Of a stretch of DNA of 64,000 nt, positions 9,017 to 49,188 are shown piece after piece; within the stretch, counting starts at the first letter, position 1, and each line of letters starts with the position of its first letter. A program made the translations under genes and the position numbers. The notes below the pieces were generated by a model. It worked only from the letters and a program-made list of their open reading frames with translations. It was not told the DNA's origin and ran no database searches. The stretch lies in the sequence record OR836606.1. The stretch is one strand, 5' to 3'. This DNA comes from Staphylococcus phage LY01.

Positions 9017-9030
9017 GACCAATTAAAAAT

Positions 9031-33327: not shown

Positions 33328-33489
33328 CATTTATATTAACTATATGAATTTCATATAGATTAGACTATATCTTATACTTCTAATAAGTATTATTATATTT
33401 AATCGTTGGACAATCATAAAGATTGATGCTGATTAAGTTTATAAACTTTTCCAGCAATTAATAATATTTATACTGAGCCATTAAAATTA
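33328..33489 (-). ncRNA. Miniature group I intron (~162 nt) in nrdE
   Basis: On the minus strand: P AATTGCTGGAAAAG, Q AATCAGCATC, R GTCCAACGATTAAA, S AAGATATAGTCTA. The IGS GGCTCAG pairs with the exon end CTGGGT. The intron starts UAA and ends G. Confidence 0.8.
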
Positions 33490-34236
33490 ACCCAGTTGAT
33501 TTACATATGATAATGTATCTTCAAATACTTTCATAACCGGAACTACTCCTGAAGCGGCACCTTCTACACCTTTAATTGGATCATTATCTGCACGTAGATT
33601 TGATAAACTGATTCCACAGCCTCCGCCTCTTTTACTTAATTGAGCTACGTTAGTAACAGTTCTATAAATTGAAGCTAGAGAATCTTCCATTGTAACTAAG
33701 AAACAACTTATTAACTCACCAGAACGTTTTCTACCTGAATTGAGAAATGTCGGTGTAGCGGGTTGGAAAGTTCCTGTAATGATTTCTTTAGCGATATTCT
33801 TAGCTAATTCTTCATCTCCATCAGCTAAATATAAAGCTACAAATAAAATTCTATCTTCATATAGTTCTAATAAAATCTCCCCAGCATCATCTTTCATTGC
33901 ATACTGTTCATAGAATTTTTTAGCCCCCAATAAGCGAGTAAATCTATGCTTATAAGCCATTAATTCTTTCATTAATCCTTTAATGAACTCAAAATCATAA
34001 TTATTGATCATATCGCCATCAATATAATCATTATCAACTAGATAATTAATTTTTTCTTTATATGTTTTAAAGTATCTTACATTCTTATTAACTGAATCTA
34101 AGAAATATTTTTTAACTGAAGCTAATTCAAATTCTAAATCTAAATTACCGTCTTTTAATTGTGACCCTCTTGAGTTTAATTCGTTATATGAATAATCTTT
34201 AAATTTTTCTGAAGTTAAATCAATTTCTTTTGGCAT
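33490..34236 (-). CDS. nrdE: Ribonucleotide reductase class Ib alpha subunit, exon 1
   Basis: N-terminal ATP-cone-less NrdE region; the ORF continues into the intron and stops at the intron's first codon, TAA. Confidence 0.85.
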
Positions 34237-34265
34237 TTTATTAAAGTCTCCTTTTATATAGCTTA

Positions 34266-34979
34266 TTAATTTATTTCTTGTATTGCTTTTAAAATTTCTC
34301 TTTTATTATAATTTATCATTTCTTTATCATACTTCATGATAACTTTTTCCAAATTCTTTACAATATCTTCGAAAATTTTTTCTGACTTTGGATATTTTAA
34401 ACCAAATCTTGTTGGTTCATAAACTAATATATGTTCGATACTACTTAAAGTGTTAGAAAAAGAGTACCAAAATGATATTTGATCTGAAGATTTCCTAAAA
34501 GATAAAGTTCTTAAATCTTTTATCTTAGATTTTTTAGATATTTTTGTAGGTTTACCATTTGGTTTAAAATAATATGATACGTCTGAAGAGTTTATTTTCT
34601 TATCCTTCAAAAAACCTCCATTTTTATTAATTTCAGAAATTCCTTCTTTTATATAATTCGGAGAATTTTCTATAAAATTAATCATAAGTTTTTTACCGGA
34701 TTTCTGAAATTGTTCATGGTCCATTGTATTTAATTTATCTTCTTTTAATTCATTCCATTTATCAATAAATAATTTTAATATATTTTCTTCTATATGAGAA
34801 TTGGAGGTTTTTATAGAAAATGAATTATTTTTTATATTTCCATTCTTTTTATAATCTTCATTTACTTTTTGATAATATTTTAATATACCCTTACTGATAT
34901 TATCATTTTCATTTTCTATTTTTTGACTATTGTTTTTAAATGATTTAACTGAGCTGTAATGAATTATATTTTCTTCCAT
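34266..34979 (-). CDS. Hypothetical protein (237 aa)
   Basis: ORF between nrdI and nrdE. Confidence 0.5.
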   Translation of the reverse strand: MEENIIHYSSVKSFKNNSQKIENENDNISKGILKYYQKVNEDYKKNGNIKNNSFSIKTSNSHIEENILKLFIDKWNELKEDKLNTMDHEQFQKSGKKLMINFIENSPNYIKEGISEINKNGGFLKDKKINSSDVSYYFKPNGKPTKISKKSKIKDLRTLSFRKSSDQISFWYSFSNTLSSIEHILVYEPTRFGLKYPKSEKIFEDIVKNLEKVIMKYDKEMINYNKREILKAIQEIN

Positions 34980-35003
34980 ATTTTAAATTCTCCTTACGGT
35001 ATG

Positions 35004-35408
35004 TTAACTTATAATACTAGAGTTACTTAACATTTCTAATTTTTTATTTAATTCTAAATGCTCATTTTTTATTCCATGAAGCTCAATTCCCATTATTAAT
35101 TTTTTATTGAAATCTTTACATAATTTTTTAGGTGTAGTCAAGAATTCATAATTGAGATTTCTATTACCTGAACCAACTATACCTACACAGTTCATTAAAT
35201 TATTACCCTTATTAAAGAATTTTTCTATATGATTATATACTGCATGCGGAGTATTATAAGAACCGCAAATAAGAACATATTCTTCATTAATTTCTATATC
35301 TTCACAATTATTTTTATTAAGTTCAATAGGTTCGCCGATTATTGATTTATCTAATTTATGTGCAAATATTTTACTATTACCTGTTAATGTAAAATAAACT
35401 AATCTCAT
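35004..35408 (-). CDS. nrdI: NrdI flavodoxin-like protein
   Basis: YFTLTGNSKIF and GSGNRNLNYEF motifs. Confidence 0.75.
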   Translation of the reverse strand: MRLVYFTLTGNSKIFAHKLDKSIIGEPIELNKNNCEDIEINEEYVLICGSYNTPHAVYNHIEKFFNKGNNLMNCVGIVGSGNRNLNYEFLTTPKKLCKDFNKKLIMGIELHGIKNEHLELNKKLEMLSNSSIIS

Positions 35409-35489
35409 TTAAATCTCTCCAAAATATAAAATTTTTCGTTAAAAAGAGATCCATCATAGGTTATCCCTATGATAGATCAATTATATTTC

Positions 35490-35690
35490 TTAATATCCTA
35501 CTTGACGATAATCCCATTTCCAATAAGTTCCATCTGATGAGAATGAATAATTCCAACCTTCAATACTAAAGTTATAGTTGTATTCTCCTTCATGAACAGC
35601 TTTTGTATTTAATTCATTATCGTTATTTCTAGCTTTCTCAGCTAATTTTTTAAAATCCACTTCTTCTGGACTGTTAAAAATAGTTTGCAT
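35490..35690 (-). CDS. Small hypothetical protein (66 aa)
   Basis: ORF. Confidence 0.4.
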   Translation of the reverse strand: MQTIFNSPEEVDFKKLAEKARNNDNELNTKAVHEGEYNYNFSIEGWNYSFSSDGTYWKWDYRQVGY

Positions 35691-35716
35691 AACTAAAATC
35701 TCCTTTATTATATTAA

Positions 35717-35956
35717 TTAAGCATTAACTGTAGATAAAATTTGATTTAATTTAGCAGGATCATTACCAACGATTACATCTGTTCCAAAATCAATTACAGG
35801 CAATGATTGATAACCTTTAGATAAAAGTTCTTCTTTAGCACTTTCATCTTCATCAATATTAATTTCAGTATAATCAACACCTTTATTATTTAAAAACATT
35901 TTACTGAAACCACATTTAGCGCAGTTATTCTTAGTATAAAATTTAATTTGTTCCAT
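35717..35956 (-). CDS. nrdH: NrdH-like glutaredoxin (CxxC: NCAKC)
   Basis: 79 aa with a CAKC redox motif, upstream of nrdI-nrdE-nrdF. Confidence 0.7.
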   Translation of the reverse strand: MEQIKFYTKNNCAKCGFSKMFLNNKGVDYTEINIDEDESAKEELLSKGYQSLPVIDFGTDVIVGNDPAKLNQILSTVNA

Positions 35957-35998
35957 CTTTTAATCAAACCTCTTTCTTATAATTTTTAATAATATATT

Positions 35999-36745
35999 TT
36001 AGTATTTCTTAAGAATACCATTTATTACTTTGATAAAGTCTTCGTTCTGATCTAATTTATTGCCGAATTTTCCAATATAGTCAACATTTTCAGAAAGAGA
36101 TTTTATATAGTAAGGATATTTTTCATAATTTTGCGACATGTATGAACCTAATGAACACATAAATTTGTATAATATATTTGATTCTTTAAAACTATCATTA
36201 TCTAAAGCATTTTTTAAATTATCATAAATTCCTTCTAAATCAATGTAGTTATATTCATTATTTTCATTTCCATGTAACTTATTATATCTATAAATTTTCA
36301 TATTTAATTTTTCATTTAATTTTTTAAGTTTATTTTCACTAACAGGCAATTTACTAATATTAATATTCTCTACAAGATGTTTAGCTTCTTTACTATCTTT
36401 AATTTGCTGAATAATATTTTCAATATATTTAGTGTCTTTTATCTTTATATTTTTAAGAGGTTTAAGTCTTTCAGGAATATCATCTTCACTATCAAAACTT
36501 AAATCACCATTGATAAAGTCCAATTTTTCTTGGTATCTATTAACTTTAGCATCTACTGAAATAGTATCATTAAGACTAATACTGTCTTTACCATAATATG
36601 AAGCTATTTCTTTATTAATCTTTTCTTTAGTTTCTTCTAATTCTTTCTCAATTTTTTCATTTTCTTTTTCAAATTCCTCATTAGCCCGTTCTATATCTTG
36701 TTCTAATTTTTCTAAATTCAATTCTTTGTTCTTATCTTCAGTCAT
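35999..36745 (-). CDS. Hypothetical coiled-coil protein (248 aa)
   Basis: ORF. Confidence 0.5.
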   Translation of the reverse strand: MTEDKNKELNLEKLEQDIERANEEFEKENEKIEKELEETKEKINKEIASYYGKDSISLNDTISVDAKVNRYQEKLDFINGDLSFDSEDDIPERLKPLKNIKIKDTKYIENIIQQIKDSKEAKHLVENINISKLPVSENKLKKLNEKLNMKIYRYNKLHGNENNEYNYIDLEGIYDNLKNALDNDSFKESNILYKFMCSLGSYMSQNYEKYPYYIKSLSENVDYIGKFGNKLDQNEDFIKVINGILKKY

Positions 36746-36769
36746 TTTAGTTTTTCTCCTTATATATTA

Positions 36770-37579
36770 TTATTTATACTTATTTATAAAATAATATTGA
36801 ACTTCTCGATGTAATACATTATTTTCTATAAAAGAATCTTTAAATACATTAATTAAATGGTTTTCAAATCTAACATCTGTTACAGACTGTTCTACTAACA
36901 TTCTATCAATTTGATAGTTGTTTAATTCAGATTCTTCATCATAGATAATGGTCTCTATTACATCTTCATTATCAGGAATATGAATACTGTCAATAATCTC
37001 AGGAATGGAATATACTAAAGGAGTATAATCGTTATCAATAACTTTCTTTAAGTTATTATATGAAAGAGAATTAATGACATCATCGTCCATACTGTCTTTA
37101 TAAGTTTTAGCTAATTGCATTATATTCTTTTCAATATAGTTAATAAATAAATTATTTAAAGTTTCTTTTTTATTTAATACAAAGAAATTATACAATGATT
37201 TAATGTATTGAGCTTTATCTTCAATTAAAATATCTTCTGGAAATTCTAAAGAAAACTGGTAAGTAGTTTCAATAGATTCTTGAATTTCATTAAGAATATC
37301 ATGATAAACTTGTTTAGTTTTAATTAAAATATCATTATCTTCTTTATATCTTTCTAAAATAAATTTAAATCTAATTTCAAAGTATTCAAAAAAATCTTTA
37401 TGGTATTGATTAATATAAAATTGTCTTGTATTTGAATTTTCAATTTGTTCCTTAATATTATCAATCATAATATCTTCAGATATATTCATAATGACTTCAT
37501 CATATTCTTCTTTTACCATTTCTAAATCATCTTTATCGTCAATTAAATATGTTTTTGTCAATTTATTTTCACCATCCAT
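36770..37579 (-). CDS. Hypothetical protein (269 aa)
   Basis: ORF. Confidence 0.5.
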   Translation of the reverse strand: MDGENKLTKTYLIDDKDDLEMVKEEYDEVIMNISEDIMIDNIKEQIENSNTRQFYINQYHKDFFEYFEIRFKFILERYKEDNDILIKTKQVYHDILNEIQESIETTYQFSLEFPEDILIEDKAQYIKSLYNFFVLNKKETLNNLFINYIEKNIMQLAKTYKDSMDDDVINSLSYNNLKKVIDNDYTPLVYSIPEIIDSIHIPDNEDVIETIIYDEESELNNYQIDRMLVEQSVTDVRFENHLINVFKDSFIENNVLHREVQYYFINKYK

Positions 37580-37643
37580 TTTTTATATACTATTTTACTA
37601 AAATATCTAATACAATCTAGTTAGATTTGTTTTATAAAAATTT

Positions 37644-37680
37644 GCGATAATAAATAGGTAATGACAAATAATATGTCATT
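37644..37680 (-). terminator. Hairpin terminator downstream of terL
   Basis: Stem aggtaatgaca/tgtcattacct; same motif family as the hairpin at 4514. Confidence 0.5.
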
Positions 37681-37693
37681 ACCTATAATATAT

Positions 37694-38098
37694 TTAATCT
37701 AATAGATTCATTATTCTTTTTGATTTCTGATCTGGAGAAGAATTGTTATTCTGTAATAAAGGATTACTAGGGAGATTACCATCAATAATTCCACTAATAC
37801 GTTTCATGGATGCAATATCTTTTCTTCTAGCTTGTCTTTCTTTTTCAATTTCTTCTGCATTATCTCCATCTGCAGATACCATTGAACCGTATTTAACTTT
37901 AACAAATTTCTTAATGTCTTTCTCATAGTAATAAGCATATAAACAAAATAGATAACTCATAAGTAAATCGTCATGTCCGCCATCAGGGTGATCAATTCTA
38001 CCTTTTTTCATTTGAAGGGATTTTATTTGTTGGAATAATGGTTTATTATTAACTAAATAAGGTTTTTCTTCAACAATCATTGATAAAATTTCATTGAG
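37694..38098 (-). CDS. terL: Terminase large subunit, final exon (nuclease-domain C-terminus, GGHDDLLMS)
   Basis: HPDGGHDDLLMSYLF resembles the terminal catalytic Asp motif of TerL RNase-H-like nucleases. In frame upstream only to 38119, so a 3' splice site lies at ~38099-38119. Confidence 0.6.
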   Translation of the reverse strand, partial: LNEILSMIVEEKPYLVNNKPLFQQIKSLQMKKGRIDHPDGGHDDLLMSYLFCLYAYYYEKDIKKFVKVKYGSMVSADGDNAEEIEKERQARRKDIASMKRISGIIDGNLPSNPLLQNNNSSPDQKSKRIMNLLD

Positions 38099-38099
38099 C

Positions 38100-38286
38100 A
38101 TTAGATCTGCTATATAAATTCATGAGTTTAATTTAATTAAAATGAATTTATTCGACTTCGTCATCACTCTGACTTACTTTGCACTTTAAGTTTTTTCGTT
38201 ATAAACTACTTCAACAGAAAGCTTTAATCAAAGCAGAGGTTAAAGCTCTTAAGTCATCGCATTTGGACATTTAGAGGAATAAGACC
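38100..38286 (-). ncRNA. Predicted TnpB omega-RNA scaffold / IS right end, with the guide abutting terL exon 5
   Basis: Immediately 3' of the tnpB stop; stem-loop AGCTTTAA-n12-TTAAAGCT plus further structured sequence; an omega-RNA is expected for IS605 TnpB loci. Confidence 0.4.
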
Positions 38287-39456
38287 TCATTTAGCCTGCC
38301 CAACAAAACGCTTACCATACAGTTTTAAATTGACAGCAGCGTTATAATCTCTATCCATTTTATGTCCACAATCACAGGAATACCATCTATCTGATAGTTT
38401 CAACTTATCTTCTTTAGTTAGAATTTGGCCACAATTAGAACATAATTGAGTTGATGGAAACCATCTGTCAGCTACAATAATAGTATTACCATTGCTTTCA
38501 GCTTTTTGTTCAAGTAAAGTCCTAAACTGTCTCCAATTGGACTGTGCGATTGATTTGGATAGTTTTCTATTTTTAATCATATTTGAAACCTGTAAATCTT
38601 CAATAGTTATATATTGATAATTGTTAATCAAGTTAGTAGTAATCTTATGAAGATAATCTTTTTTAATATTATTAATTCTATACCATACTTTTTGTATTTT
38701 GGTTTTCAATACATTGTATTTATTAGAACCATAAACTTTTTTAGATAATCTTTTTTGGTAGTATTTGATTTTATTATAGAGTGAGATTAGTTTATTATTT
38801 AATGAATGGTATTTTTTAAATTTACCGAAATCATCATTAATAATAGCTAAATCTTTTACACCTAAATCAATACCTACATGACTATTGTTATGAATTAATT
38901 TTTTACTGTTATCAACTTTCATTACTATCGAAGCGAAATACCTACCAGCATATTTGGATATAGTTACTTCTTGTATAGAATTATAATCTTTGTTTAAAGG
39001 TTCTTTCATTTTAATTAATGAATTTACACCACGCAATTTAAGTTTATTATTTTTCTCACCTTTAATTTGAATAGCGTAAGGATCTTTCCTATAGAACCTT
39101 GCTCTTAATTTAGATTTCTTTTTAGATTTAAATTTAGGATATTTACCATATCCTTTCCACATCATATTAAATGCTTTACCTAGATCTTCTGTAGAAGTTT
39201 CAATTATCATGATAATTTGATCTTTCTCCCAATCTTCTTTACATTTTTTAAGTTCATCACGAACTCTACGATGAGTTGGTTTTGGTAAAGATTTATCAAT
39301 TTGATAATTATTCCACATATATTTCCATTTATTAAGTGCCTTGTTATAAATATAACGACTATATCCAAAAGCTTGATTAAATATCTCTCGTTGTTCTTTA
39401 TTAGGTTTCAATTCGATTTTTATAGATTTGTACATGTGATTTTCACCTCGATTCAT
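38287..39456 (-). CDS. tnpB: TnpB (IS605 OrfB family RNA-guided endonuclease)
   Basis: N-terminal ELKPNKEQREIFNQAFGYSRYIYNKAL. RuvC-I HVGIDLGVKDLA, RuvC-II ITIEDLQV, zinc finger CSNCG...CDCGH, RuvC-III DRDYNAAVNL. Confidence 0.9.
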   Translation of the reverse strand: MNRGENHMYKSIKIELKPNKEQREIFNQAFGYSRYIYNKALNKWKYMWNNYQIDKSLPKPTHRRVRDELKKCKEDWEKDQIIMIIETSTEDLGKAFNMMWKGYGKYPKFKSKKKSKLRARFYRKDPYAIQIKGEKNNKLKLRGVNSLIKMKEPLNKDYNSIQEVTISKYAGRYFASIVMKVDNSKKLIHNNSHVGIDLGVKDLAIINDDFGKFKKYHSLNNKLISLYNKIKYYQKRLSKKVYGSNKYNVLKTKIQKVWYRINNIKKDYLHKITTNLINNYQYITIEDLQVSNMIKNRKLSKSIAQSNWRQFRTLLEQKAESNGNTIIVADRWFPSTQLCSNCGQILTKEDKLKLSDRWYSCDCGHKMDRDYNAAVNLKLYGKRFVGQAK

Positions 39457-40037
39457 ATTTCTAAATGATTTAGAATTTATAATTCATTGTTTAATATATC
39501 GAGGTAAAAATTATTTTAATTAAATTAAACTCACGAATTCCAGAAATCCCTTTCAGGTTCTGTTAAATAGCAAGACTATATCATGATCCATTAAATCAAT
39601 GGACCCCTCGCACTTCGAAAAACTTCTGATGAAGTTAATCTACTCTACTCACTTCACATAGTATTTCAACTATGCTTATTCAGGTTAATCAAACCTGTGC
39701 TTTCGATAGTCGTTGAACGTTTATCCATCATGTGGACACTTCGCTGCTAGACTTCCCATTGTTTACAAACTTTAGCGATCTAGGGTTTTCACCTAGACTT
39801 GTTTTCAGCATAGTTCATCTTAGAGATTTTTTCTGTCTTTCGACTGCATGTCACGCTATCCATTACTGGCATACGTTGTAGCTCTCTAAGCTTTAGGGTT
39901 TTACAAGCAATTCACGAGGTATTTTTACCACTAATTTCATGAATTAAAATTAGTTTAATTTACTTATATAGTAGCAGAGCGTGAAACATGAATTAATAAG
40001 AATTTAAGTCTTAATTCACTTAAAATATCTTAAATTA
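39457..40037 (-). ncRNA. Group I intron ribozyme portion of the IStron
   Basis: On the minus strand: P GAATTGCTTGTAAAACC, Q AAAACAAGTCT, R GTTCAACGACTATC, S CATGATATAGTCTTG. Confidence 0.65.
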
Positions 40038-40877
40038 AAACTGTTTCGTTACTCTAGATTTTTTAGTTGTATCAATACCATATCTTCTTACTTGTTTGGT
40101 AACTTTATTAGTGCTATTTCTAGGAATTTCATTAAATACTTGCTTATTAACTTCAACTTGTTTTTCTGCTACTCTATTCTTTAATGAGTAGAAAATATTG
40201 TCTCCAATACCATCAGTTTGAATCATATCTTCTATCATTACAGTACCTGCATAGTTACGTTCAGGTATTAATACTGCATTAGGTATATAAAGCGTAATAA
40301 GTTCTTTAATTAATTTTCTAAAAGTAGGTCCATTAATTACATTATTTTGGAAAATCATTACAGGCTCTAATGTACCTGGATCAACTACAGTAAATGCAGT
40401 ATTATCTCGACCAAGACCACCAGATATATCAATACCAACAAGCCAGTTCTTTTCATGCATATTATCCATCTTTTTAACCATATAAACATAATAAGTTTTA
40501 CCATTTATTTTAAAATCAATAGTATTATATATCTCTTTATTTGCATATAATGATAATTCTGACATTTGTTGTTCATCAAATAAAGAATCATCGTTACTAA
40601 ACGCCCATTCAAGAAGTATCTCACGTTTAACTGCTTCTAAAGAACCAATTTGACGTTTTTGCTTTTCTAACCAAGCATCATCTTTACCTAATTCTTTATA
40701 TGAATATTCTATATAGATGAATGAATTGCCTGAATTACTTTCCATATACTCTTCTAATTTTTCATTACCCTCTTCTTCAGAATTAATGTAATAATCATAT
40801 ATTTTTTCTGTCCATTGTGCTGCATCATTCATTTGCTCAAAGAAGAACTGTCCTTGAGGTACATCCAAAGTACTCAT
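40038..40877 (-). CDS. terL: Terminase large subunit, exon 4 (nuclease domain). The 5' end (3' splice site of intron A) lies near 40877-40890
   Basis: LVGIDISGGLGRDNTAFTVVD RNase-H-like nuclease motif. PQGQFFFEQMNDAAQW resembles TerL PNGxNhFYdiW. Ends ...VTKQF followed by TAA, the first codon of the IStron. Confidence 0.7.
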
Positions 40878-41035
40878 ATTTTTTATCCTATATTAATTTA
40901 ATATAGATAAGACTATATCTTAGTATATTATAATACCATTTATTATTTAGTCGTTAAACAAGTATTATCAACTTGATGCTGATTGTCTTAATAAAGATTT
41001 TCCAGCAATTAAATAAATAAGCCCAGTTTAATTTT
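40878..41035 (-). ncRNA. Miniature group I intron A in terL (~150-158 nt)
   Basis: Minus strand: IGS GGGC pairs with exon GCCU. P AATTGCTGGAAAA, Q ATCAGCATC, R GTTTAACGACTAAA, S AAGATATAGTCTTA; P3, P5, P6 and P9 hairpins identifiable. Confidence 0.7.
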
Positions 41036-41107
41036 AGGCGTTGTTGTAATTAGAAGACCATAAGGTGTGCCATTTTTCTTAGCTATTGCAGATGCTGTAG
41101 AAACTGC
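41036..41107 (-). CDS. terL: Terminase large subunit micro-exon 3 (72 nt; AVSTASAIAKKNGTPYGLLITTTP)
   Basis: In phase between introns B and A; contains the TerL motif III ITTTP. Confidence 0.65.
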
Positions 41108-41267
41108 CTTTTAATATTAATCTACATGGATTCCATATAGAATAGACTATATCTTAGTATTATATTAATACTATTTATTATTTAGTCGTTGAACACTATA
41201 AATAGCGATGCTGATCGTCTTAATAAAGATTTTCCAGCAATTAAATAAATAAGCCCGCATTAATTTC
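41108..41267 (-). ncRNA. Miniature group I intron B in terL (160 nt); ~90% identical to intron A
   Basis: P, Q, R and S elements present. 5' splice site after AGGCCU with IGS GGGC; 3' end ...TTAATATTAAAAG. Confidence 0.7.
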
Positions 41268-41330
41268 AGGCCTCATTGCTTCAAACATTGTTTGGTTGTG
41301 TGGAATGAATGCCCACTCATCCAACCAGAC
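41268..41330 (-). CDS. terL: Terminase large subunit micro-exon 2 (63 nt; VWLDEWAFIPHNQTMFEAMRP = Walker B)
   Basis: hhhhDE-aafIP Walker B signature of TerL ATPases; in phase 0. Confidence 0.65.
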
Positions 41331-41634
41331 CATAGGTCATTATGTTAACTATATTTAAAAAATATAGATCAGACTATATCATACTCATATAAATAAGTGA
41401 ATATATTTAGTCGTTGAACACTATAATTAGTGATGCTGATTAAGATAATAATCTATTCCAGCAATTAATATTCTTTTACTACTGCAACTATCTACAGTAG
41501 AACCACGCTATTTTAGACTATATCTTCAATTTTATAATTGTCTTTTATTTAGTCGTTGAACACATATGTGATGCTGATCAAATTAAATAATTTGTCCCAG
41601 CAATTAAAAAGATTTATAGCAAGCCATGATATTA
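41331..41634 (-). ncRNA. Composite intron in terL: two tandem group I cores (D at ~41480-41634, C at ~41331-41500) with no exon between them
   Basis: D: the intron starts TAA after the exon ...AGCAGGT, IGS GGCTTGCT, P/Q/R/S, P9 ctactg..cagtag. C: P AATTGCTGGAATAG follows immediately, then Q/R/S/P9. The 3' splice site was chosen to restore the VWLDE frame. Confidence 0.55.
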
Positions 41635-42276
41635 ACCTGCTTTATTTGCACTCTCACTGTTAGTCGGAGGTGAAACTGTTTTAATAGTATTGTTATTACT
41701 AGCTAATTGAAATTCGTTGATCTTATCTCTATCATTTTTATCTCCAAAATTAGCTAATACATATTCAGGTAAACATTTCTCTTTAAATAAGTTTTTAAGA
41801 CGTTTTAAGTTCTCAGTTGTATCTGAATAAGATTTGTGTGTAAATAACATTGTATAGTTACTACCTACTAATAACATTATCCATGAATAATAACATACTG
41901 CTGAATATGTTTTATAGTGCTGACGTGGAAGCATTATAGCTGTATCTAAATTGTGTAACATACAAAATGTCATCGCCATATTACCTCTATGAAGTTCATA
42001 CATAACCTTACCGCCAGGAACAGGAACTCTTATAACTTCCCTTAAATAAAACCATATATTAATTTTAGCTTCCCTTAATACACGGGTTTTCATTTCATCA
42101 GAAAGTTCAGGATCCCAAGGATCTACTCCTACAAGATTTTTATCATATAGAGTTAATGGAATCCCATAATTTCTGACGTTGTTCTTCTTAAGATCCCTAG
42201 CCACTCTTAAAAAACTAACATTATTAGTTTTATAATCGTAATAAACTTTTTTCTTTAATTTTGGTTTAATTGTCAT
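41635..42276 (-). CDS. terL: Terminase large subunit, exon 1 (ATPase N-terminal region, Walker A-like PRQHYKT)
   Basis: MLPRQHYKTYSAVCYYSWIMLL P-loop-like; the ORF terminates at the intron's first codon, TAA. Confidence 0.7.
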
Positions 42277-42295
42277 ATTTATTTCAACTCACTTT

Positions 42296-43459: not shown

Positions 43460-43486
43460 AATTAAATAATAATCTCCCTTCTTTAT

Positions 43487-44593
43487 TTATATATCAGGTG
43501 TTAACCTATCAGACATTTTTATTAATTTCTGAATGTCACTAATAGTTTTCTTTATTTCTTCTTTAGTTTTAGCATCATTATTACTATTAGATAATTCTTT
43601 TTGTAATATTTTCACATTACTCTCTATTATATCTGTTTCCCAATCTTTATAATCTCTTATAAAAAGGTTGAAAGGATATAATAATTTATTTTTAATTTTA
43701 TTAATTTTACTGTTGTTATATATTGGTGGTTTACTACCTTCTAATTTATCTATCTCTCTAACTATTATTGTAGTTTTAGTTAATTCTCTAGCATAACCAT
43801 ATAAATTAGGAAGATAATCTGCAGTTCTTTCAGTTAAATTATAATCTTTATTATTTTTATTTTTCTTTATATTTCTGTTTAAAAAAACAGTTGTAACCAT
43901 TCCACTTCCGATACCTATAGGTGCATTAACAATACTTAAAAAGATAAAGAATAAAGTCATAGCAGATATCATAGGTATAGCAAATTTTTTATTTCTTTTT
44001 TCATCTTCTTCAATATCTTTTGAGTAAGAAAACATTTGAGGTGGATTATCTTTATATTTCAATTCAAATTTAGGAGTTTTTCCTTTATTAAGTACATTTA
44101 ATTCTAAAGGTAAAATTAAATTATGTCCTATTTCATGAAGTAAGACTGAAGTTAATAAACTTCCATCAAATAGATTGTCTATTATTTTATTTTTACCTTT
44201 TAATAAAATACAGTATCTTATAAAGTTTAACTCCATATCAACTATTATTTTAGTCGGTTTAGCATAATATATCCCATTTTTTTCTTCAGAGACTATTTTT
44301 AATAATCCCAATGCTATATCTTTTGCTTGTTTTTCATTCCATCTTGTTTGACCTATGAAATTACATGAATAATATTTAGAATCATTCAATTCTAAGAAAT
44401 TAAATCTCAAATCAGTGTTAAATAATTCATTACATATTTTCTCTATTTCTTTTTCTTTATTTTTAAAATTAAAGTCAATAAATTCTTCTTTATTAAGATC
44501 ATATGAATTTATTAATTCATTAAATACATTATCAATTAATTTTAGCTTATTCTTATTTTTACTATTAATAAACATATCTTCGTTAAGAAGCAA
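43487..44593 (-). CDS. Putative membrane-associated HExxH zinc metallopeptidase (368 aa), paralog 2
   Basis: VLLHEIGHNLILP motif; shares an extended block ...GKxPxFELKYKDNxP... with paralog 1. Confidence 0.55.
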   Translation of the reverse strand: MLLNEDMFINSKNKNKLKLIDNVFNELINSYDLNKEEFIDFNFKNKEKEIEKICNELFNTDLRFNFLELNDSKYYSCNFIGQTRWNEKQAKDIALGLLKIVSEEKNGIYYAKPTKIIVDMELNFIRYCILLKGKNKIIDNLFDGSLLTSVLLHEIGHNLILPLELNVLNKGKTPKFELKYKDNPPQMFSYSKDIEEDEKRNKKFAIPMISAMTLFFIFLSIVNAPIGIGSGMVTTVFLNRNIKKNKNNKDYNLTERTADYLPNLYGYARELTKTTIIVREIDKLEGSKPPIYNNSKINKIKNKLLYPFNLFIRDYKDWETDIIESNVKILQKELSNSNNDAKTKEEIKKTISDIQKLIKMSDRLTPDI

Positions 44594-44628
44594 GTTCTCT
44601 CACACCTTTTTCTTTTTATAAAATAAAC

Positions 44629-44656
44629 CCATACATTCACTAAGGAATGTATGGGT
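44629..44656 (-). terminator. Hairpin terminator downstream of the putative capsid gene
   Basis: Stem cccatacattc/gaatgtatggg followed by T-rich sequence on the minus strand. Confidence 0.5.
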
Positions 44657-44686
44657 AATATAAATAACAAAAATAAAGTATTACTC

Positions 44687-46291
44687 TTATCGAGCGTATA
44701 CTGAACCGTTGTTGTTTTTGATTGTAATACGTCCAATGATCGGAACGAATGATTCAACTGTATATCTACGAGTCATCATCATGTTAGGAACATTAGGGTT
44801 ACGAGTATTTAAGTAACCTCCACCATTTACAACATTGAATGTGTAAGGGTAGAACATAAATGTTTTATAGTTATCTTGTTGAGGGACAGCAATAATAGTC
44901 AATTCACCTTGACGAACTAAGTCAGAACCGATAATACGGTAGTTAGCAGTACCTGAAGCAGCACCTAATGAATAGTTAATTTTGATTCCGTTAGAATACG
45001 CATCAGCGTTACGGTCTCCACCATTGAAAGTCCAAGAAACGTTAGGAATTAAACGAACGTCTAATGGGTTACCAACGATAACGAATTGAACATCATATAA
45101 TTTATAATCATTTTTCATTGATTGAGTAGTGTGGTCGATTACTTCACGTAAACCTTCTAACCAATCTTTAGGATGTGCGCTGTAATCACTATGTGGGAAT
45201 ACATCGAAGCTGAAATGATATTTAGCATCAGTTTCTTTATATTCACGATCTAAGAATTCAATAATGTCTAAGTCAACTTTTTGACTAGATAATTGAGACA
45301 TAGTTTCTGATAAACGAGCAACGCCATCGATATCATAAGTAGCTTTCATATCTTGAATTACTTCAAGAGGTACTGTAGCTTCGATGTGTTGAGCTGTATC
45401 AATAACAACATCTTTACGAGTTAATCCAAGTTCAACGTTTGTAGCTGAAGTATGTTGTTCTGAAGCTACATAACCTTTGACTTTAACATCAGTTAATTTA
45501 CCTGAAGCAGAAGTCAAAGTAAGTTCACCTGAAGAAACATCCACTTTACCTAAGATAGTGTCAGTTTCAACTTCACCATCACCATTTGTAGGATATTTAA
45601 TTTGTCCTACTAATGTGTCATTGTCTTGTAATTTAACTACGTTAGAACCTAATTCAACGAATCCAGCTTCAGAAGTACGTTCATCATATGAATCGCTCCA
45701 TTTAGCTTCAACGATTTTGAATTTACGATCTAAACGGTCAATACCTTTACGAACTTCTTTACCTTCTTTTAATCCAGTAAATAAATCGTAGTCAGTAATT
45801 TTTCCACCGTCAACTTGGATATCTTCTTTAATTTGAACTAATCCAACTAGAGTTTCAGGAGTGTTGTTAATTGATTCTGGTAAAGCATGTCGGTTACCAT
45901 CTGCATCTACAACATATGGAGTTAAGATTGGAACTGTAAAGTTTGGTTTATTAGCAACTTGAGTTGGTAGAGCTTCAGTTAAAGCTAAACGAGCCCATAG
46001 TTTAACTAAAATAGGCATAGAAAGTGAAGCGTAAGGTTGGATAGGACCCATTGAAGATTCCATTAAGATTTCTTCACGAGTATTGTCTAACATTCCAGCT
46101 AAAGCTTCTCCTTCAGCAGCGTCAAAACCTTCTAATAATTGATCTTTATAACTTTCAAATACTGCATCATCAGTAGCAATAGCAGCGAAATCTCCGCCGA
46201 TAGTACTAAGATTATATGATTCATTAATAGAATTTTCAATATCTTCTAAACGAATCGAAAATTCATCTTTAATTCTGTTTGGGTTTAACAT
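44687..46291 (-). CDS. Putative major capsid protein (534 aa)
   Basis: Less compositionally biased than its neighbours (highly expressed-like); sits in the head-morphogenesis block; has its own terminator. Confidence 0.45.
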   Translation of the reverse strand: MLNPNRIKDEFSIRLEDIENSINESYNLSTIGGDFAAIATDDAVFESYKDQLLEGFDAAEGEALAGMLDNTREEILMESSMGPIQPYASLSMPILVKLWARLALTEALPTQVANKPNFTVPILTPYVVDADGNRHALPESINNTPETLVGLVQIKEDIQVDGGKITDYDLFTGLKEGKEVRKGIDRLDRKFKIVEAKWSDSYDERTSEAGFVELGSNVVKLQDNDTLVGQIKYPTNGDGEVETDTILGKVDVSSGELTLTSASGKLTDVKVKGYVASEQHTSATNVELGLTRKDVVIDTAQHIEATVPLEVIQDMKATYDIDGVARLSETMSQLSSQKVDLDIIEFLDREYKETDAKYHFSFDVFPHSDYSAHPKDWLEGLREVIDHTTQSMKNDYKLYDVQFVIVGNPLDVRLIPNVSWTFNGGDRNADAYSNGIKINYSLGAASGTANYRIIGSDLVRQGELTIIAVPQQDNYKTFMFYPYTFNVVNGGGYLNTRNPNVPNMMMTRRYTVESFVPIIGRITIKNNNGSVYAR

Positions 46292-46478
46292 AAATTTTTT
46301 CTGCTCCTTTTCTTAAATATATTAGCGTGTAGTTTATATTTATTAATTTTATTATATAAATTTGTTTATAAAAAATAATCATTATTTGTAATGAAATATT
46401 TCTTTTTATATGTTAATGTTATTAATGTTATTAATTTTATAAATATTAACAAAAAAGAATAAAATCTGAAATATAAAA

Positions 46479-47087
46479 CTATTTGCTTTTTTTGTCTTTA
46501 TTCAATTTATTATATTCTTTTAAATAAATATTGAAGATTTCATTATAAGTATTTTCAAACTTCTTATAAAGTTTTTTACATTTATCAGCATCAATATTAT
46601 TTATAAATTTATTGTTAAATAAATTAATACTGTCAATTAAACTGTCTAAGTTATTTGAAGTTTGTATTGTAATTTCATTCATTTTTTCTTTTTCATTTTT
46701 ATCAAATAATTTCATATTTTTTTCATTTATAATATCTTTAAATTTTAATGAAACAGATATCAAATCATTTAGTTTATTAAATATTTGTAATTTTAGATAT
46801 TTATCAGAATTAGTTTCTTTAGGTTCATTATTTTCTTCTTCAGATTGATCATCTTCATTATTGTTATCTTGACTATCTTCTTCGGTTTCTGTATTTTCTT
46901 CTGAAGATTCTTCATTATCACTATTGGCATCTTCAGAACTTGTATCATCTGTATTAGTATCTGGAGAATCATTATTAGTTTCATCATCTTCAGCTTCATT
47001 AAGAATATTATTACCATTTAATAATTTTTTAATTGATTCAGATAAAAGATCTCTATTATTAATAGTCATATGATGACCCACTATCAT
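46479..47087 (-). CDS. Acidic low-complexity protein (D/E/S/N-rich; possibly scaffold or internal protein)
   Basis: ORF upstream of the capsid gene. Confidence 0.45.
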   Translation of the reverse strand: MIVGHHMTINNRDLLSESIKKLLNGNNILNEAEDDETNNDSPDTNTDDTSSEDANSDNEESSEENTETEEDSQDNNNEDDQSEEENNEPKETNSDKYLKLQIFNKLNDLISVSLKFKDIINEKNMKLFDKNEKEKMNEITIQTSNNLDSLIDSINLFNNKFINNIDADKCKKLYKKFENTYNEIFNIYLKEYNKLNKDKKSK

Positions 47088-48078
47088 TTACATCTCCACG
47101 AGAAATCGCATTCTTAGTTTTTTCAATAGATTTCTTTTGGAAATTAGCTTTCTTAAGTTGAACTTCTAAATCTGATTTTAATATTCTTAATTCTTTTCTT
47201 TTTTCTTCATCATCAGTTGAATCAATTCTGTTTTCTAAAGTTTGAATTCTTTCTTCTAATACAATGATAAGTCTATTAAGTTCATTACCTTTAGTTGCAT
47301 TATAAACAATTACAGTCAATAAACCTATTAAAGCCGTTTTAGCTTTACCAATACCTGCTGAACTAATTTTTAAACCAATACAGAATAAAATTCCAGTTAA
47401 TAGAGCTCTTACGAATCTAATACGATTAGCTTTAGCTAATTGTTTATCATTCATATTTTTAGAAGAAGCTGTTGCTTTTTTAACAGAGCTAATTAATTTA
47501 TTTAAATTTTTTTCAGCAACTTTGGGGTCTTTAGAAGTTTCAAAACTACTATCAAGACCATCAAGATAATCTTCATCATCGTCATCATCATAAGCTTCAT
47601 TAAGATAATTCATATTACCCTCCATTAAGAAGTTAATAACAGCTTTTCTTTCTAATTTAGAATCAGCAGGGCTTTCAGCTAGTGCTACAGTCAATTGTTT
47701 AAAATTAAATTCTGTATTAATATTAGAACTAAAATCTTCTTTATATAAACTATCTATGTATCCGTTATTTGGGACACGTTTATTAATATAAAGAGTGTTA
47801 TATTTATCTTTTAAAAATTCTATTTTATGAAGAACCATATTAACTGCCATTTCAGACTGTTCATTTTCAATTTCAAATCTTTCTAACGAATCTTTTAAAG
47901 TAACAAGATATTTAACAGATTTTCTAACTTGATCGCTTGTAAAAGAATCCACATCTGCATACTTTTCAATGTCAATTAATTTATCATATAAATCAACAGG
48001 AAAAGAATCATTATCTGTTTGTTCTATGAAATATTTTAAATCACTTTCTACTTCATTGAAATTCTTCAAGTATTTCAC
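47059..48078 (-). CDS. Hypothetical membrane protein (339 aa, one TM segment)
   Basis: ORF; hydrophobic stretch FVRALLTGILFCIGL...LIGLLTVIVY. Confidence 0.5.
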   Translation of the reverse strand: MKYLKNFNEVESDLKYFIEQTDNDSFPVDLYDKLIDIEKYADVDSFTSDQVRKSVKYLVTLKDSLERFEIENEQSEMAVNMVLHKIEFLKDKYNTLYINKRVPNNGYIDSLYKEDFSSNINTEFNFKQLTVALAESPADSKLERKAVINFLMEGNMNYLNEAYDDDDDEDYLDGLDSSFETSKDPKVAEKNLNKLISSVKKATASSKNMNDKQLAKANRIRFVRALLTGILFCIGLKISSAGIGKAKTALIGLLTVIVYNATKGNELNRLIIVLEERIQTLENRIDSTDDEEKRKELRILKSDLEVQLKKANFQKKSIEKTKNAISRGDVNDSGSSYDY

Positions 48079-48180
48079 ATCCTATTCATATTTTCATTAA
48101 GGTTAATATTCTATTGTTAAAATTGCTTATCAAACATTTAAATATTCTAAATTTAATATATGAAAGGAAGTTAAATAAAT

Positions 48181-48404
48181 ATGTCTAAAGATATAAAAGC
48201 TTATCTTATTAATGAATCTAACACAACTTCTCAACCAGAAGTAGTTCAAGATAATAATAAATCGGTTAGATTCATTGCTGAGTTACAAGAAGCTGATAGA
48301 CAAAACCGTAATGGTCGTGTTTATCGTAAAGATGTTATTCAAAGTGGTTTAGATAGTCCAGTAATACAAGAAAAATTAGCAAGAAAAACTTTTTATGGTG
48401 AGTT
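48181..48404 (+). CDS. Prohead core protease (T4 gp21-like), exon 1
   Basis: NGRVYRK and YGE(L)HP align to T4 gp21 RLYPK / GELNHP; the exon ends GTGAGTT, which pairs with the IGS GGCTCAC. Confidence 0.65.
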
Positions 48405-48561
48405 TTAGGTTAAATGGCTCACATTAAATTATATTAATTGCTGGAAAAGATTATTATCTTAATCAGCATCAACTTAATACAAGTTGTTCAACGACTAAAT
48501 ATATAGCCTAGATGATATAGTCTAACCTTTATTAAAATGATAAAGAATAATAATTTGCAGG
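48405..48561 (+). ncRNA. Miniature group I intron 1 in the protease gene (157 nt)
   Basis: Plus strand: P AATTGCTGGAAAAG, Q AATCAGCATC, R GTTCAACGACTAAA, S GATGATATAGTCTAA, P9 ctttat..ataaag. Confidence 0.75.
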
Positions 48562-48817
48562 ACATCCTTTAAGTGATGAACCTAAACGACAAATGTATAT
48601 TGATCAACGTAATATTTCTCATATCGTTACTAGAACATGGTGGAATGGTAATAAATTAATGGCAGAAGTAGAAACGGCACAAACAGCAGCTGGTAAAGAT
48701 ATGAAAGGTTTAATCGGACAAAAGTCTGACGTATCTTTCTCAATGCGTGGTTTCAGTAAAATTAATAGAACACCTTCTGGCGAAGTTGAAGTTACTAAAC
48801 CTTTAAGATTAATCTGT
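48562..48817 (+). CDS. Prohead core protease, exon 2 (HPLSDEPKRQ...TWWNGN...SFSMRGFS)
   Basis: Aligns to T4 gp21 MWWKGN and the catalytic-Ser region SSRGLGS; ends phase 0 before the TAA that starts the intron. Confidence 0.65.
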
Positions 48818-48998
48818 TAAATTGTAGCAGCTTTATATAGAAATATATATTGAAAAAGAATATTAATTGCTAAGAAGTTTAATTAAGCCAATTAGCATCA
48901 ACTTAATACAAGTTGTTCAACGACTAAATATATTTACTCTTAATAAGAGTATGATATAGTCTAATCTTAATAGTAAGATCTATTAAGTTAATATAATG
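48818..48998 (+). ncRNA. Miniature group I intron 2 in the protease gene (181 nt), P4 covariant
   Basis: P AATTGCTAAGAAG with Q AATTAGCATC: compensatory GCUAAG/UUAGC versus GCUGG/CCAGC in the other introns. R GTTCAACGACTAAA, S ATGATATAGTCTAA. IGS GCAG pairs with exon CUGU. Confidence 0.75.
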
Positions 48999-49025
48999 TA
49001 CGATAAAATAAACCTTGTCGCTTCT
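48999..49025 (+). CDS. Prohead core protease micro-exon 3 (27 nt; YDKINLVAS)
   Basis: In-frame segment between intron 2 (3' end at G48998) and the TAA that starts intron 3. Confidence 0.5.
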
Positions 49026-49188
49026 TAAAGCAATTTAAGAATGATAAAACTATTAATTGCTAAAATCTTTTATTAAAGTAATTAGCATCAACTTAATAAA
49101 AGTTGTTCAAAGACTAAATATAGTTTATCCTTTTATAGGATAATGATATAGTCTGATCTATATTATACTAATATAGATAACATAAATG
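49026..49188 (+). ncRNA. Miniature group I intron 3 in the protease gene (163 nt)
   Basis: P AATTGCTAAAATC, Q ATTAGCATC, R GTTCAAAGACTAAA, S ATGATATAGTCTGA, P9 ctatattatactaatatag; ends ...CATAAATG. Confidence 0.7.

What the first reader, a model, noticed from the sequence alone, without database searches (positions are those of the whole stretch)
33328..49188. Family of at least eight miniature (~157-181 nt) group I introns with shared architecture, five of them beginning with an in-frame UAA
Each compact copy contains the P (AATTGCTGGAAAA), Q (AATCAGCATC), R (GTTCAACGACTAAA) and S (AAGATATAGTCTA) elements in order, a short IGS 10-12 nt into the intron that pairs with the last 4-7 exon nucleotides ending in U (for example exon CTGGGT with IGS GGCTCAG; exon AGCAGGT with IGS GGCTTGCT), a P9 hairpin and a terminal G. 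Seven copies are the miniature type, at the lower size limit reported for group I introns; P2 is apparently absent. One copy (IStron ribozyme) is larger. Two protease introns carry compensatory P4 changes (GCUAAG with UUAGC instead of GCUGG with CCAGC), which supports a functional RNA structure. In five introns the first three nucleotides are UAA in frame with the upstream exon, so unspliced mRNA would terminate immediately (observed in nrdE, terL intron D, the IStron, and protease introns 2 and 3). None encodes a homing endonuclease. Introns A and B of terL are ~90% identical, suggesting recent spread.
Basis: seen in the sequence. Interest (0 to 1): 0.85.

Follow-up and report, generated by a model that had tools for sequence, protein, structure and literature searches.

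The report
Miniature group I introns in staphylococcal phage
Three essential genes of a giant Staphylococcus phage are interrupted by eight unusually tiny (127-184 nt), protein-less group I introns plus one transposon-carrying intron; the small ones appear to be stripped-down relatives of ordinary phage introns, and standard annotation misses them.

Summary
The window comes from a PBS1/AR9-like Staphylococcus jumbo phage. Comparison with intron-free alleles in phages S6 and PALS_2 fixes eight ORF-less introns to the base: one in nrdE, four in terL and three in the prohead protease gene. Removing them, plus a 1945-nt IStron, restores reading frames of exactly the reference lengths. All eight follow a U and end in G. 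Each has its own guide sequence that pairs with its own exon. They share a covarying P3-P9 core with the P3/P7 pseudoknot.

- Sizes are 127-184 nt, and there are eight miniatures, not seven.
- Three introns, not five, start with an in-frame UAA.
- P2 is present in two copies.
- terL introns A and B are 80% identical, not about 90%.

Rfam finds nothing at window scale and scores the protease introns 28-40 bits in a close-up, below the 50-bit cut-off. The orthologous AR9 intron at the terL_I1 site is 289 nt against 127 nt here. Relatives carry 0 to about 29 copies, and one orthologue carries a homing endonuclease. Introns in these phages were already known from protein alignments, but this architecture was not described. 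This is a new variant of a known kind. Self-splicing has not been tested.

The parts
33328..33489 (-). nrdE_I: 162-nt ORF-less group I intron in nrdE. Exon ..CUGGGU | UAA.., guide GCUCAG, ends in G.
   Evidence: Boundaries from S6 nrdE. The spliced ORF is 733 aa. Model match 124 bits. Orthologues in AH12 and Machias are 93-94% identical.
41508..41634 (-). terL_I1: 127-nt intron, the smallest. It has no P2 and no P9. Only 7 nt (AAAAUAG) lie between P7' and the terminal G. It starts with an in-frame UAA.
   Evidence: The same site in AR9 terL holds a 289-nt intron with the same GGU|UAA..AUGGCU 5' end. The MarsHill orthologue, L002:3681-3810, also lacks P9.
41494..41507 (-). 14-nt terL micro-exon CGUGGUUCUACUGU (encodes RGST and two bases of V), lying between terL_I1 and terL_I2.
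   Evidence: Alignment to S6 terL. It is needed to restore the frame.
41338..41493 (-). terL_I2: 156-nt intron. Guide GCAGUAG pairs with 7 bases of the micro-exon.
   Evidence: In Machias the intron at the same site carries a 337-aa homing endonuclease ORF in P8.
41108..41267 (-). terL_I3: 160-nt intron, guide GGGCUU.
40875..41035 (-). terL_I4: 161-nt intron with the same guide, GGGCUU, as terL_I3. It lies 72 nt downstream at another ..GCCU site and is absent from MarsHill.
   Evidence: The MarsHill terL match is 162 nt shorter than the query span, and the model finds only three copies there.
38107..40051 (-). 1945-nt IStron in terL. It has a full-size group I ribozyme in its 5' ~500 nt, the TnpB gene at 39456..38287, and a 180-nt 3' tail. 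The 5' exon ends in G (..AGAG|UAACG). The U.G pair with guide GCUCUG is shifted one base into the intron.
   Evidence: TnpB domains OrfB_IS605, Cas12f1-like_TNB and HTH. Rfam Intron_gpI scores 26 bits, E=1.5e-4, on 39554-39956. Splicing after G with a shifted U.G pair is what Tourasse et al. 2014 describe for group B IStrons (PMC4227781).
48404..48557 (+). prot_I1: 154-nt intron in the prohead protease gene. It has no P2 and no P8 hairpin.
   Evidence: Boundaries from the PALS_2 protease gene. Rfam 40.5 bits. The alignments show P8 missing here and in the Machias orthologue.
48818..48998 (+). prot_I2: 181-nt intron with a P2 hairpin (GAAA loop) and P4 = UGCUAA/UUAGCA. It starts with an in-frame UAA.
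48999..49004 (+). 6-nt protease micro-exon UACGAU (Tyr-Asp), lying between prot_I2 and prot_I3.
49005..49188 (+). prot_I3: 184-nt intron with a P2 hairpin (GCAA loop) and P4 = UGCUAA/UUAGCA. Guide GUCG pairs with 4 bases of the micro-exon.
37694..42276 (-). terL gene: six exons (42276-41635, 41507-41494, 41337-41268, 41107-41036, 40874-40052, 38106-37694) giving a 677-aa TerL.
   Evidence: The spliced CDS is 2034 nt, the same as S6 terL, and 91.9% identical to it.
31873..34236 (-). nrdE gene: two exons (34236-33490 and 33327-31873), 733 aa.
48181..49542 (+). Prohead scaffold/protease gene: four exons (48181-48403, 48558-48817, 48999-49004, 49189-49542), 280 aa.

Best explanation
These are genuine group I introns, removed from the mRNAs of nrdE, terL and the prohead protease by the standard two-step guanosine-initiated reaction.

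**How each copy is built**
- Its own 4-7 nt guide sequence, 9-14 nt from the 5' end, pairs with the last bases of its exon to form P1, with a U.G pair at the cleavage site.
- A compact core follows: P3, P4, P5, P6, P7, usually P8 and usually P9, with the P3/P7 pseudoknot.
- The junctions are the group I consensus: AAU-UGCUGG-AAA, AAUCAGCAUC, GUUCAACGACUAAA and AAGAUAUAGUCU.
- This core supplies the guanosine pocket (a G-C pair in P7 next to a bulged C). The terminal G marks the 3' splice site.

**Origin and spread**
- They are miniaturised derivatives of the ordinary IA-type introns found at or near the same sites in the Bacillus relative AR9.
- They have lost the roughly 100-nt insert after P7 (P7.1/P7.2-like) and the extensions beyond P9. 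Most have lost P2, and individual copies have lost P8 or P9.
- They have no endonuclease gene of their own. I infer that they spread and persist at the DNA level, using endonucleases encoded by full-length relatives or free-standing genes during co-infection. New nearby sites may also be gained by guide-sequence-directed reverse splicing.

**Shown versus inferred**
- Shown: boundaries, ORF restoration, P1 specificity, core covariation, homology to AR9 introns, and presence/absence polymorphism.
- Inferred: catalysis, independence from proteins, and the mode of mobility.
For: 1. **Exact excision.** The spliced CDSs equal the intron-free references in length (2202, 2034 and 843 nt) and have no internal stops.
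2. **Splice-site rules.** There is a U at -1 in 8 of 8 and a terminal G in 8 of 8. In five intron-free alleles (S6, PALS_2) the corresponding base is not U, differing only by a synonymous change.
3. **P1.** The cognate exon/guide helix averages 5.6 bp against 2.0 bp for non-cognate pairs, with permutation p=6e-5. At the shared terL_I1 site the guide tracks the exon between AR9 (CUGGGU/GCUCAG) and the window (AGCAGGU/GCUUGCU).
4. **Core.** On 31 copies, 95.5% of cells are paired against 27-44% in the slid controls. 22 of 38 pairs show changes on both sides, and 0 of 500 shuffles reach the observed values. The eight window copies alone give the same result. RNAalifold, run on the plain MAFFT alignment, independently recovers P4, P5, P7 and P9.
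5. **Rfam.** Intron_gpI aligns over its full length to the three protease introns, at 40.5, 33.3 and 27.8 bits with E from 9e-9 to 6e-5.
6. **Relatives of ordinary size.** The AR9 terL and protease introns score 66-93 bits in Rfam and 28-45 bits with the mini-intron model. AR9 terL intron 1 sits at the identical site.
7. **Viability.** The isolated, plaque-forming phages MarsHill and Machias carry orthologous copies in terL and the protease gene, so these must be removed in vivo (Korn et al., bioRxiv 10.1101/2020.12.14.422802).
8. **Mobility signature.** By blastn, AH12, Machias, PB50, Madawaska and MarsHill hold 29, 29, 20, 12 and 9 places, while S6, PALS_2, DC4 and SA1 hold none. A version with a homing endonuclease sits at the terL_I2 site in Machias. 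Exon flanks (+-15 nt) are 83% identical against 92-96% gene-wide.
Against: - There is no RNA evidence of any kind here.
- Rfam scores are below the 50-bit gathering cut-off, and at window scale the filters lose the introns altogether.
- G+C is 20-25% and most helices are 4-7 A-U-rich pairs, so the fold may be marginal without help.
- prot_I1 lacks P8, which normally stacks on P3 in the core, and terL_I1 lacks P9. Whether such cores are catalytically competent alone is unknown.
- The A3 alignment was fitted to the model, and the copies are related, so the cell counts are not independent events.
- I chose the guide positions knowing the cognate exons.
Confidence: 0.88

Rival explanations
1. The elements are group I-derived introns, but they are no longer autonomous ribozymes. 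After losing P2, P7.1/P7.2 and in some copies P8 or P9, they would need a phage or host RNA-binding protein or chaperone to fold and splice, as many mitochondrial group I introns do.
For: - Helices are very A-U-rich and short, and stabilising peripheral domains are missing.
- Rfam scores are sub-threshold.
- The related phages do not plaque at 37 C (Korn et al.). That would fit a thermally fragile process, but this link is pure speculation.
Against: - The catalytic junctions are intact and invariant.
- No maturase-like ORF is associated with any copy.
- The 205-nt Azoarcus intron shows that small cores can be robust (own knowledge).
- Nothing here discriminates between self-splicing and assisted splicing.
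Confidence: 0.3
2. The elements are repeated insertions that are not spliced (MITE- or REP-like). The host genes would then be pseudogenes, be expressed as separate fragments, or be read through by ribosomal bypassing.
For: They form a dispersed repeat family with in-frame stops. The GenBank annotation of MarsHill leaves terL as two separate CDSs.
Against: - Exons of 6 and 14 nt cannot be translated as separate fragments.
- Removal restores the frames exactly.
- Every copy obeys the U...G rule and has an exon-specific guide.
- The group I core is conserved with compensatory changes.
- Viable phages carry these copies in terL and the protease gene.
Confidence: 0.02
3. The motif matches arise by chance in A-T-rich DNA.
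For: The S motif alone, with 3 mismatches allowed, is no more frequent than in shuffles (60 matches against 86 expected).
Against: The combined pattern occurs 8 times against 0 expected. Model matches score 89-130 bits. Presence and absence are exact at exon junctions.
Confidence: 0

Closest known systems
Group I introns of Bacillus jumbo phage AR9/PBS1 (terL has four, the prohead protease has one)
   Same: - Same phage lineage and same host genes.
- terL intron 1 is at the identical site, with the same GGU|UAA...AUGGCU 5' end.
- The P, Q and S elements and the P9 hairpin are shared.
   Different: - The one AR9 intron I delimited is 289 nt. All five AR9 matches have 33-40% G+C and score 66-93 bits in Rfam.
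- The three best-matching terL introns carry a 100-115 nt block after P6/P7 (UCGAAA..., P7.1/P7.2-like). The first also has extensions beyond P9.
- The window copies are 127-184 nt with 20-25% G+C, score below the Rfam threshold, and lack those domains.
Classical phage IA2 introns (T4 td/nrdB/sunY; Staphylococcus phage Twort nrdE and orf142)
   Same: They sit in protein-coding genes of DNA metabolism and virion assembly, with several introns per gene. In-frame stops near the 5' splice site are a discussed feature (PMC3984707). The core consensus is the same.
   Different: Those introns are about 250 nt or more (own knowledge) and have P2 and P7.1/P7.2. I did not compare sequences directly.
Azoarcus pre-tRNA-Ile intron (IC3, 205 nt), the usual benchmark for a small self-splicing group I intron (own knowledge)
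   Same: A compact complete core with short hairpins.
   Different: - It has a different subgroup and host gene.
- It is G-C-rich and very stable.
- It has P2, P8 and P9 with tetraloop-receptor contacts.
- All eight copies here are shorter than 205 nt.
Degenerate 56-81 nt 'group I' introns of fungal SSU rDNA (Harris & Rogers, PMC3160393)
   Same: They are proposed as extremely reduced group I introns.
   Different: Those lack most of the core. The copies here keep P3-P7 and all the catalytic junctions.
Group B IStrons (BcISt1 of Bacillus cereus; CbISt3/4 of Clostridium phage c-st), Tourasse et al. 2014
   Same: For the 1945-nt element: a 5' group I ribozyme followed by a 3' ORF B/TnpB, a 5' exon ending in G, and a U.G pair shifted by one base.
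   Different: It lies in a staphylococcal jumbo-phage terL, has only ORF B, and has no counterpart in the nine sequenced relatives. The nearest DNA match is 70% identity over 40% of the query, in Listeria phage LPJP1. It is not a member of the mini-intron family (no match to model R1).

Membership tests
Group I intron | P1 helix between the end of the 5' exon and an internal guide sequence, with a U.G pair at the cleavage site | tested here: met
   8 of 8 exons end in U, opposite a G that starts a 4-7 bp cognate helix. Cognate helices average 5.6 bp against 2.0 bp for non-cognate pairs, p=6e-5.
Group I intron | Terminal guanosine (omega G) at the 3' splice site | tested here: met
   8 of 8 end in G at boundaries fixed by intron-free alleles.
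Group I intron | Conserved core: P3-P4-P5-P6-P7-P8-P9 in order, with the P3/P7 pseudoknot, supported by covariation | tested here: met
   95.5% of cells are paired and 22 of 38 pairs change on both sides, against 27-44% paired in the slid controls. RNAalifold independently recovers P4, P5, P7 and P9. Exceptions: P8 is absent in prot_I1 and P9 is absent in terL_I1.
Group I intron | Guanosine-binding site: a G-C pair in P7 next to a bulged base, with consensus J6/7 and J8/7 | tested here: met
   A-[C]-GACUA pairs with UAGUC-U and is (nearly) invariant: G-C in 29 of 29 copies. The J8/7 sequence AAGAUAUAGUC matches the Rfam consensus. This is a sequence-level test only.
Group I intron | Match to Rfam RF00028 at its gathering score (50 bits) | tested here: not met
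   No hit at window scale. Scores are 40.5, 33.3 and 27.8 bits in a close-up of the three protease introns, over the full model length, with E from 9e-9 to 6e-5. The other five were not scanned close-up. This is an annotation threshold, not a biological criterion. The AR9 orthologues pass at 66-93 bits.
Group I intron | Guanosine-dependent self-splicing of the RNA | not testable with these tools
   This needs in vitro transcription and splicing assays or RNA-seq.
Group I intron subgroup IA2 (phage type) | P7.1/P7.2 between P7 and P3' | tested here: not met
   In the mini copies P3' follows P7 after 3-5 nt. AR9 terL intron 1 and the window IStron do have an insert after GACUA. The minis therefore look IA-derived, but they do not fit the IA2 definition.
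Homing-endonuclease-encoding mobile intron | An endonuclease ORF inside the intron | tested here: not met
   None of the eight has an ORF (sizes). In Machias the intron at the terL_I2 site carries a 337-aa ORF annotated as a homing endonuclease.
Group B IStron | A group I ribozyme fused 5' to an IS607/IS605-type ORF B; insertion after G; U.G pair shifted by one base | tested here: met
   with the definition taken from PMC4227781. Transposition and splicing were not tested.

The most novel reading that the evidence does not exclude
These would be the smallest natural, complete-core, protein-independent group I ribozymes. The extreme is 127 nt with no P2 and no P9, and another copy has no P8.

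They would also form a MITE-like burst, at up to about 29 copies per phage genome. Spread would depend on endonucleases supplied in trans, and occasionally on guide-directed reverse splicing into nearby sites. terL_I3 and terL_I4 hint at this. They share the guide GGGCUU and both sit after GCCU, and terL_I4 is absent from MarsHill. The published phages of this clade (MarsHill, Madawaska, Machias) also encode a reverse transcriptase of unknown role.
Probability: 0.35. Interest if true: 0.8.

Novelty: new variant of a known kind. Interest (0 to 1): 0.62.

Why it matters
- **A natural deletion series.** If they self-splice, these introns show which peripheral elements a group I core can lose while still working in essential genes: P2, P7.1/7.2, P8 or P9. 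They would fall below the roughly 200-nt size usually taken as the practical minimum. That is of interest for ribozyme structure and folding, and for compact permuted-intron circular-RNA tools.
- **An annotation gap.** Rfam at its standard thresholds misses all of them. As a result terL in MarsHill and Machias is deposited as unjoined fragments, and the authors could not reconstruct it. The 6-nt and 14-nt micro-exons explain why.
- **A system for studying intron gain and loss.** Closely related, cultivable phages carry from 0 to about 29 copies, and some copies carry an endonuclease gene. This makes intron gain, loss and homing in viruses directly testable.

Tried and rejected
- **Rfam at window scale.** The gathering threshold on the whole window and E<=10 on 19 kb found nothing. 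Only a close-up scan, with laxer filters, recovered Intron_gpI.
- **Single motifs.** The S motif alone is not enriched and the R motif only weakly, so I used the combined pattern.
- **IMG/VR.** A scan with the strict pattern gave 0 hits.
- **Species-representative genomes.** The scan gave 2 hits in MAGs (L010, L011). They lack an S element, look like coding sequence, and match neither R1 nor Rfam, so I treat them as chance.
- **First P1 test.** Allowing any position in the 5' segment did not discriminate in A-T-rich RNA. I replaced it with a fixed-position test.
- **Model R1.** It had P9 one column out of register (seen), so I rebuilt it as R2.
- **Alternative IStron splice sites.** Sites with a U at -1 give frameshifts, or a one- or two-residue deletion. 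I rejected them in favour of the exact restoration after G, which matches published group B IStrons.
- **ORF 34266-34979.** Pfam and PHROGs found nothing, so it cannot be called a free-standing endonuclease.
- **Literature.** Eight searches found no description of this mini-intron architecture. The library does not hold Lavysh et al. 2016 on AR9.
- **Not done.** I did not fetch the whole genomes of the relatives. The per-genome counts are blastn 'places', not model hits.

Full report
**Source of the window.** The region is 92-96% identical to the Staphylococcus jumbo phages S6, PALS_2, DC4, MarsHill, Madawaska, Machias, AH12, PB50 and SA1. These are PBS1/AR9-like phages. The window matches none of them exactly, so it is a new relative.

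**Is the repeat real?**
- The R motif occurs nine times with at most 2 mismatches: six on the minus strand and three on the plus strand.
- A combined P-Q-R pattern occurs eight times against zero in shuffles.
- A covariance model built from the copies finds those eight and nothing else in the 64 kb.
- The ninth R motif belongs to a larger, different ribozyme, the IStron described below.

**Boundaries.** S6 has an uninterrupted terL and nrdE, and PALS_2 has an uninterrupted protease gene. Aligning these to the window fixes every junction.

| Intron | Coordinates (strand) | Length |
|---|---|---|
| nrdE_I | 33489..33328 (-) | 162 nt |
| terL_I1 | 41634..41508 (-) | 127 nt |
| terL_I2 | 41493..41338 (-) | 156 nt |
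| terL_I3 | 41267..41108 (-) | 160 nt |
| terL_I4 | 41035..40875 (-) | 161 nt |
| prot_I1 | 48404..48557 (+) | 154 nt |
| prot_I2 | 48818..48998 (+) | 181 nt |
| prot_I3 | 49005..49188 (+) | 184 nt |

- A 14-nt exon (41507..41494) separates terL_I1 from terL_I2. A 6-nt exon (48999..49004, UACGAU) separates prot_I2 from prot_I3.
- After removing the introns and the IStron (40051..38107), the three coding sequences are 2202, 2034 and 843 nt. These are exactly the lengths of the references. They have no internal stops and are 92-96% identical to the references.

**Group I features.**
- All eight exons end in U and all eight introns end in G.
- A G at intron position 9-14 starts a helix of 4-7 bp with the cognate exon. 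Cognate helices average 5.6 bp against 2.0 bp for the 56 non-cognate combinations, with permutation p=6e-5. I picked the guide positions knowing the cognate exons.
- Downstream come P3, J3/4-P4 (AAU-UGCUGG), P5, P4' (UCAGCA), P6, J6/7-P7 (UUCAAC-GACUA), P3', P8, J8/7-P7' (AAGAUA-UAGUCU), P9, and a 10-14 nt tail ending in G.
- On the eight window copies, 86.8% of cells pair against 29-43% when the partners are slid. 14 pairs change on both sides, and 0 of 500 shuffles reach the observed values.
- On 31 copies from the window, MarsHill, Machias and one metagenome, 95.5% pair against 27-44% in the slid controls. 22 of 38 pairs change on both sides. This alignment was fitted to the model, and the copies are related.
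- RNAalifold, run on the plain MAFFT alignment, independently predicts P4, P5, P7 and P9.
- prot_I2 and prot_I3 have an extra hairpin between P1 and P3 with GAAA and GCAA loops. This is P2.
- prot_I1 has no P8, and terL_I1 has no P9. Their orthologues in Machias and MarsHill lack the same parts.

**Rfam.** Nothing is reported at window scale, even at E<=10. In an 831-nt close-up, Intron_gpI aligns over its full length to the three protease introns. The scores are 40.5, 33.3 and 27.8 bits, against a cut-off of 50. The IStron ribozyme scores 26 bits. Routine annotation would therefore miss all of them.

**Relation to known introns.**
- AR9 terL and protease carry five introns that score 66-93 bits in Rfam. 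They also match the mini-intron model at 28-45 bits.
- AR9 terL intron 1 lies at exactly the terL_I1 site (TerL residue 214). It has the same GGU|UAA..AUGGCU.. start but is 289 nt long. It carries a long insert after P7 and extensions after P9.
- Its guide (GCUCAG, for exon CUGGGU) differs from the window's (GCUUGCU, for exon AGCAGGU) in step with the exon.
- The staphylococcal copies therefore look like reduced versions of ordinary phage IA-type introns.

**Population picture.**
- A 162-nt intron query finds 29 places in AH12, 29 in Machias, 20 in PB50, 12 in Madawaska and 9 in MarsHill. It finds none in S6, PALS_2, DC4 or SA1.
- MarsHill lacks terL_I4.
- In Machias the intron at the terL_I2 site has a 337-aa endonuclease ORF in P8.
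- Exon flanks are more diverged than the genes, at 83% against 92-96%. The -1 U is often specific to the intron-bearing allele.
- Outside these phages I found copies only in five short contigs of one metagenome, which are densely packed with them. IMG/VR gave none, and the species-representative genomes gave none that are real.

**The IStron.**
- The 1945-nt element has a full-size group I ribozyme followed by a TnpB gene.
- Exact frame restoration requires splicing after G (..AGAG|UAACG..), with the U.G pair to guide GCUCUG shifted one base into the intron.
- Tourasse et al. established this behaviour for group B IStrons (PMC4227781).
- Its UAA is not in frame.

**Prior knowledge.**
[quoted passage not shown] The micro-exon explains that.
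- I found no description of the RNA architecture or the sizes.
- In-frame stops at intron starts are a known theme.
- Most group I introns are longer than 200 nt (PMC3160393).

**Verdict.**
- The finding is real, and its interpretation is supported, with numerical corrections.
- It is a new variant of a known kind: a miniaturised, ORF-less, multi-copy lineage of phage group I introns.
- Catalysis, independence from proteins and the mode of spread are all untested.

Noticed in passing
window 38107-40051 (-): The terL IStron splices after a G, with the U.G pair shifted one base. This fits the 'group B' IStron type. It carries TnpB only, and none of the nine sequenced relatives has it at this site. 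The nearest DNA match is in Listeria jumbo phage LPJP1 (70% identity over 40% of the query). Its last ~25 nt (..AAACUCAUGAAUUU..) are complementary to UUAAUUCAUG motifs near its 5' end.
   Followed up: partly
window 41494-41507 (-) and 48999-49004 (+): Micro-exons of 14 nt and 6 nt lie between tandem introns. The 6-nt exon supplies the whole P1 target (CGAU) of the downstream intron. Machias annotates the protease as 3 joined pieces although the model finds 3 introns there, so the micro-exon appears to have been overlooked.
   Followed up: partly
window 34266-34979 (-): A 237-aa ORF sits between nrdI and nrdE, where S6 has only a 26-nt spacer. It has no Pfam or PHROGs match. Its position next to an intron-bearing gene would suit a free-standing endonuclease, but nothing supports that.
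   Followed up: partly
L013 (Machias) 7908-9116; also L008:76-218: These family members have the 5' half (P3-P7-P3') followed by an inserted ORF instead of P8, with the S element overlapping the ORF's stop. In Machias the ORF is annotated as a homing endonuclease and the intron sits at the same terL site as window terL_I2.
   Followed up: partly
L005-L009 (metagenome Ga0079226): Five short contigs from one sample hold at least 13 copies of the family, up to three within 600 nt. This points to another, possibly even more intron-dense, relative.
   Followed up: no
window exon flanks of all eight introns, e.g. 41494-41507 and 41635-41650: Synonymous differences from the intron-free alleles cluster at the junctions, for example CGU GGU UCU ACU GUA against AGA GGU AGU ACC GUU. 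The AR9 3' exon at the shared site (CGUGGUUGUACAGUG) resembles the window more than S6 does. This suggests co-conversion with the intron, or selection for P1 pairing.
   Followed up: partly
window 40875-41267 (-): terL_I3 and terL_I4 have nearly identical first ~60 nt and the same guide, GGGCUU. They differ in P6, P8 and P9 and are 80% identical overall. Both follow ..GCCU, and terL_I4 is missing from MarsHill. Either one copy was duplicated to a nearby matching site, or the two have recombined into mosaics.
   Followed up: partly
L012 (Machias) 2837-3166: Two tandem mini-introns lie immediately after the annotated N-terminal fragment of the non-virion RNA polymerase beta' gene. Some 'split' polymerase genes in these phages may therefore be intron-split rather than truly separate.
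   Followed up: no
phage records FpV4/Fpv3 (Flavobacterium) and cr127_1 (crAss-like): Short matches of about 40 nt and about 90% identity to the S-element plus P9 part of nrdE_I, in unannotated stretches. These may be unrecognised group I introns in unrelated phages.
   Followed up: no
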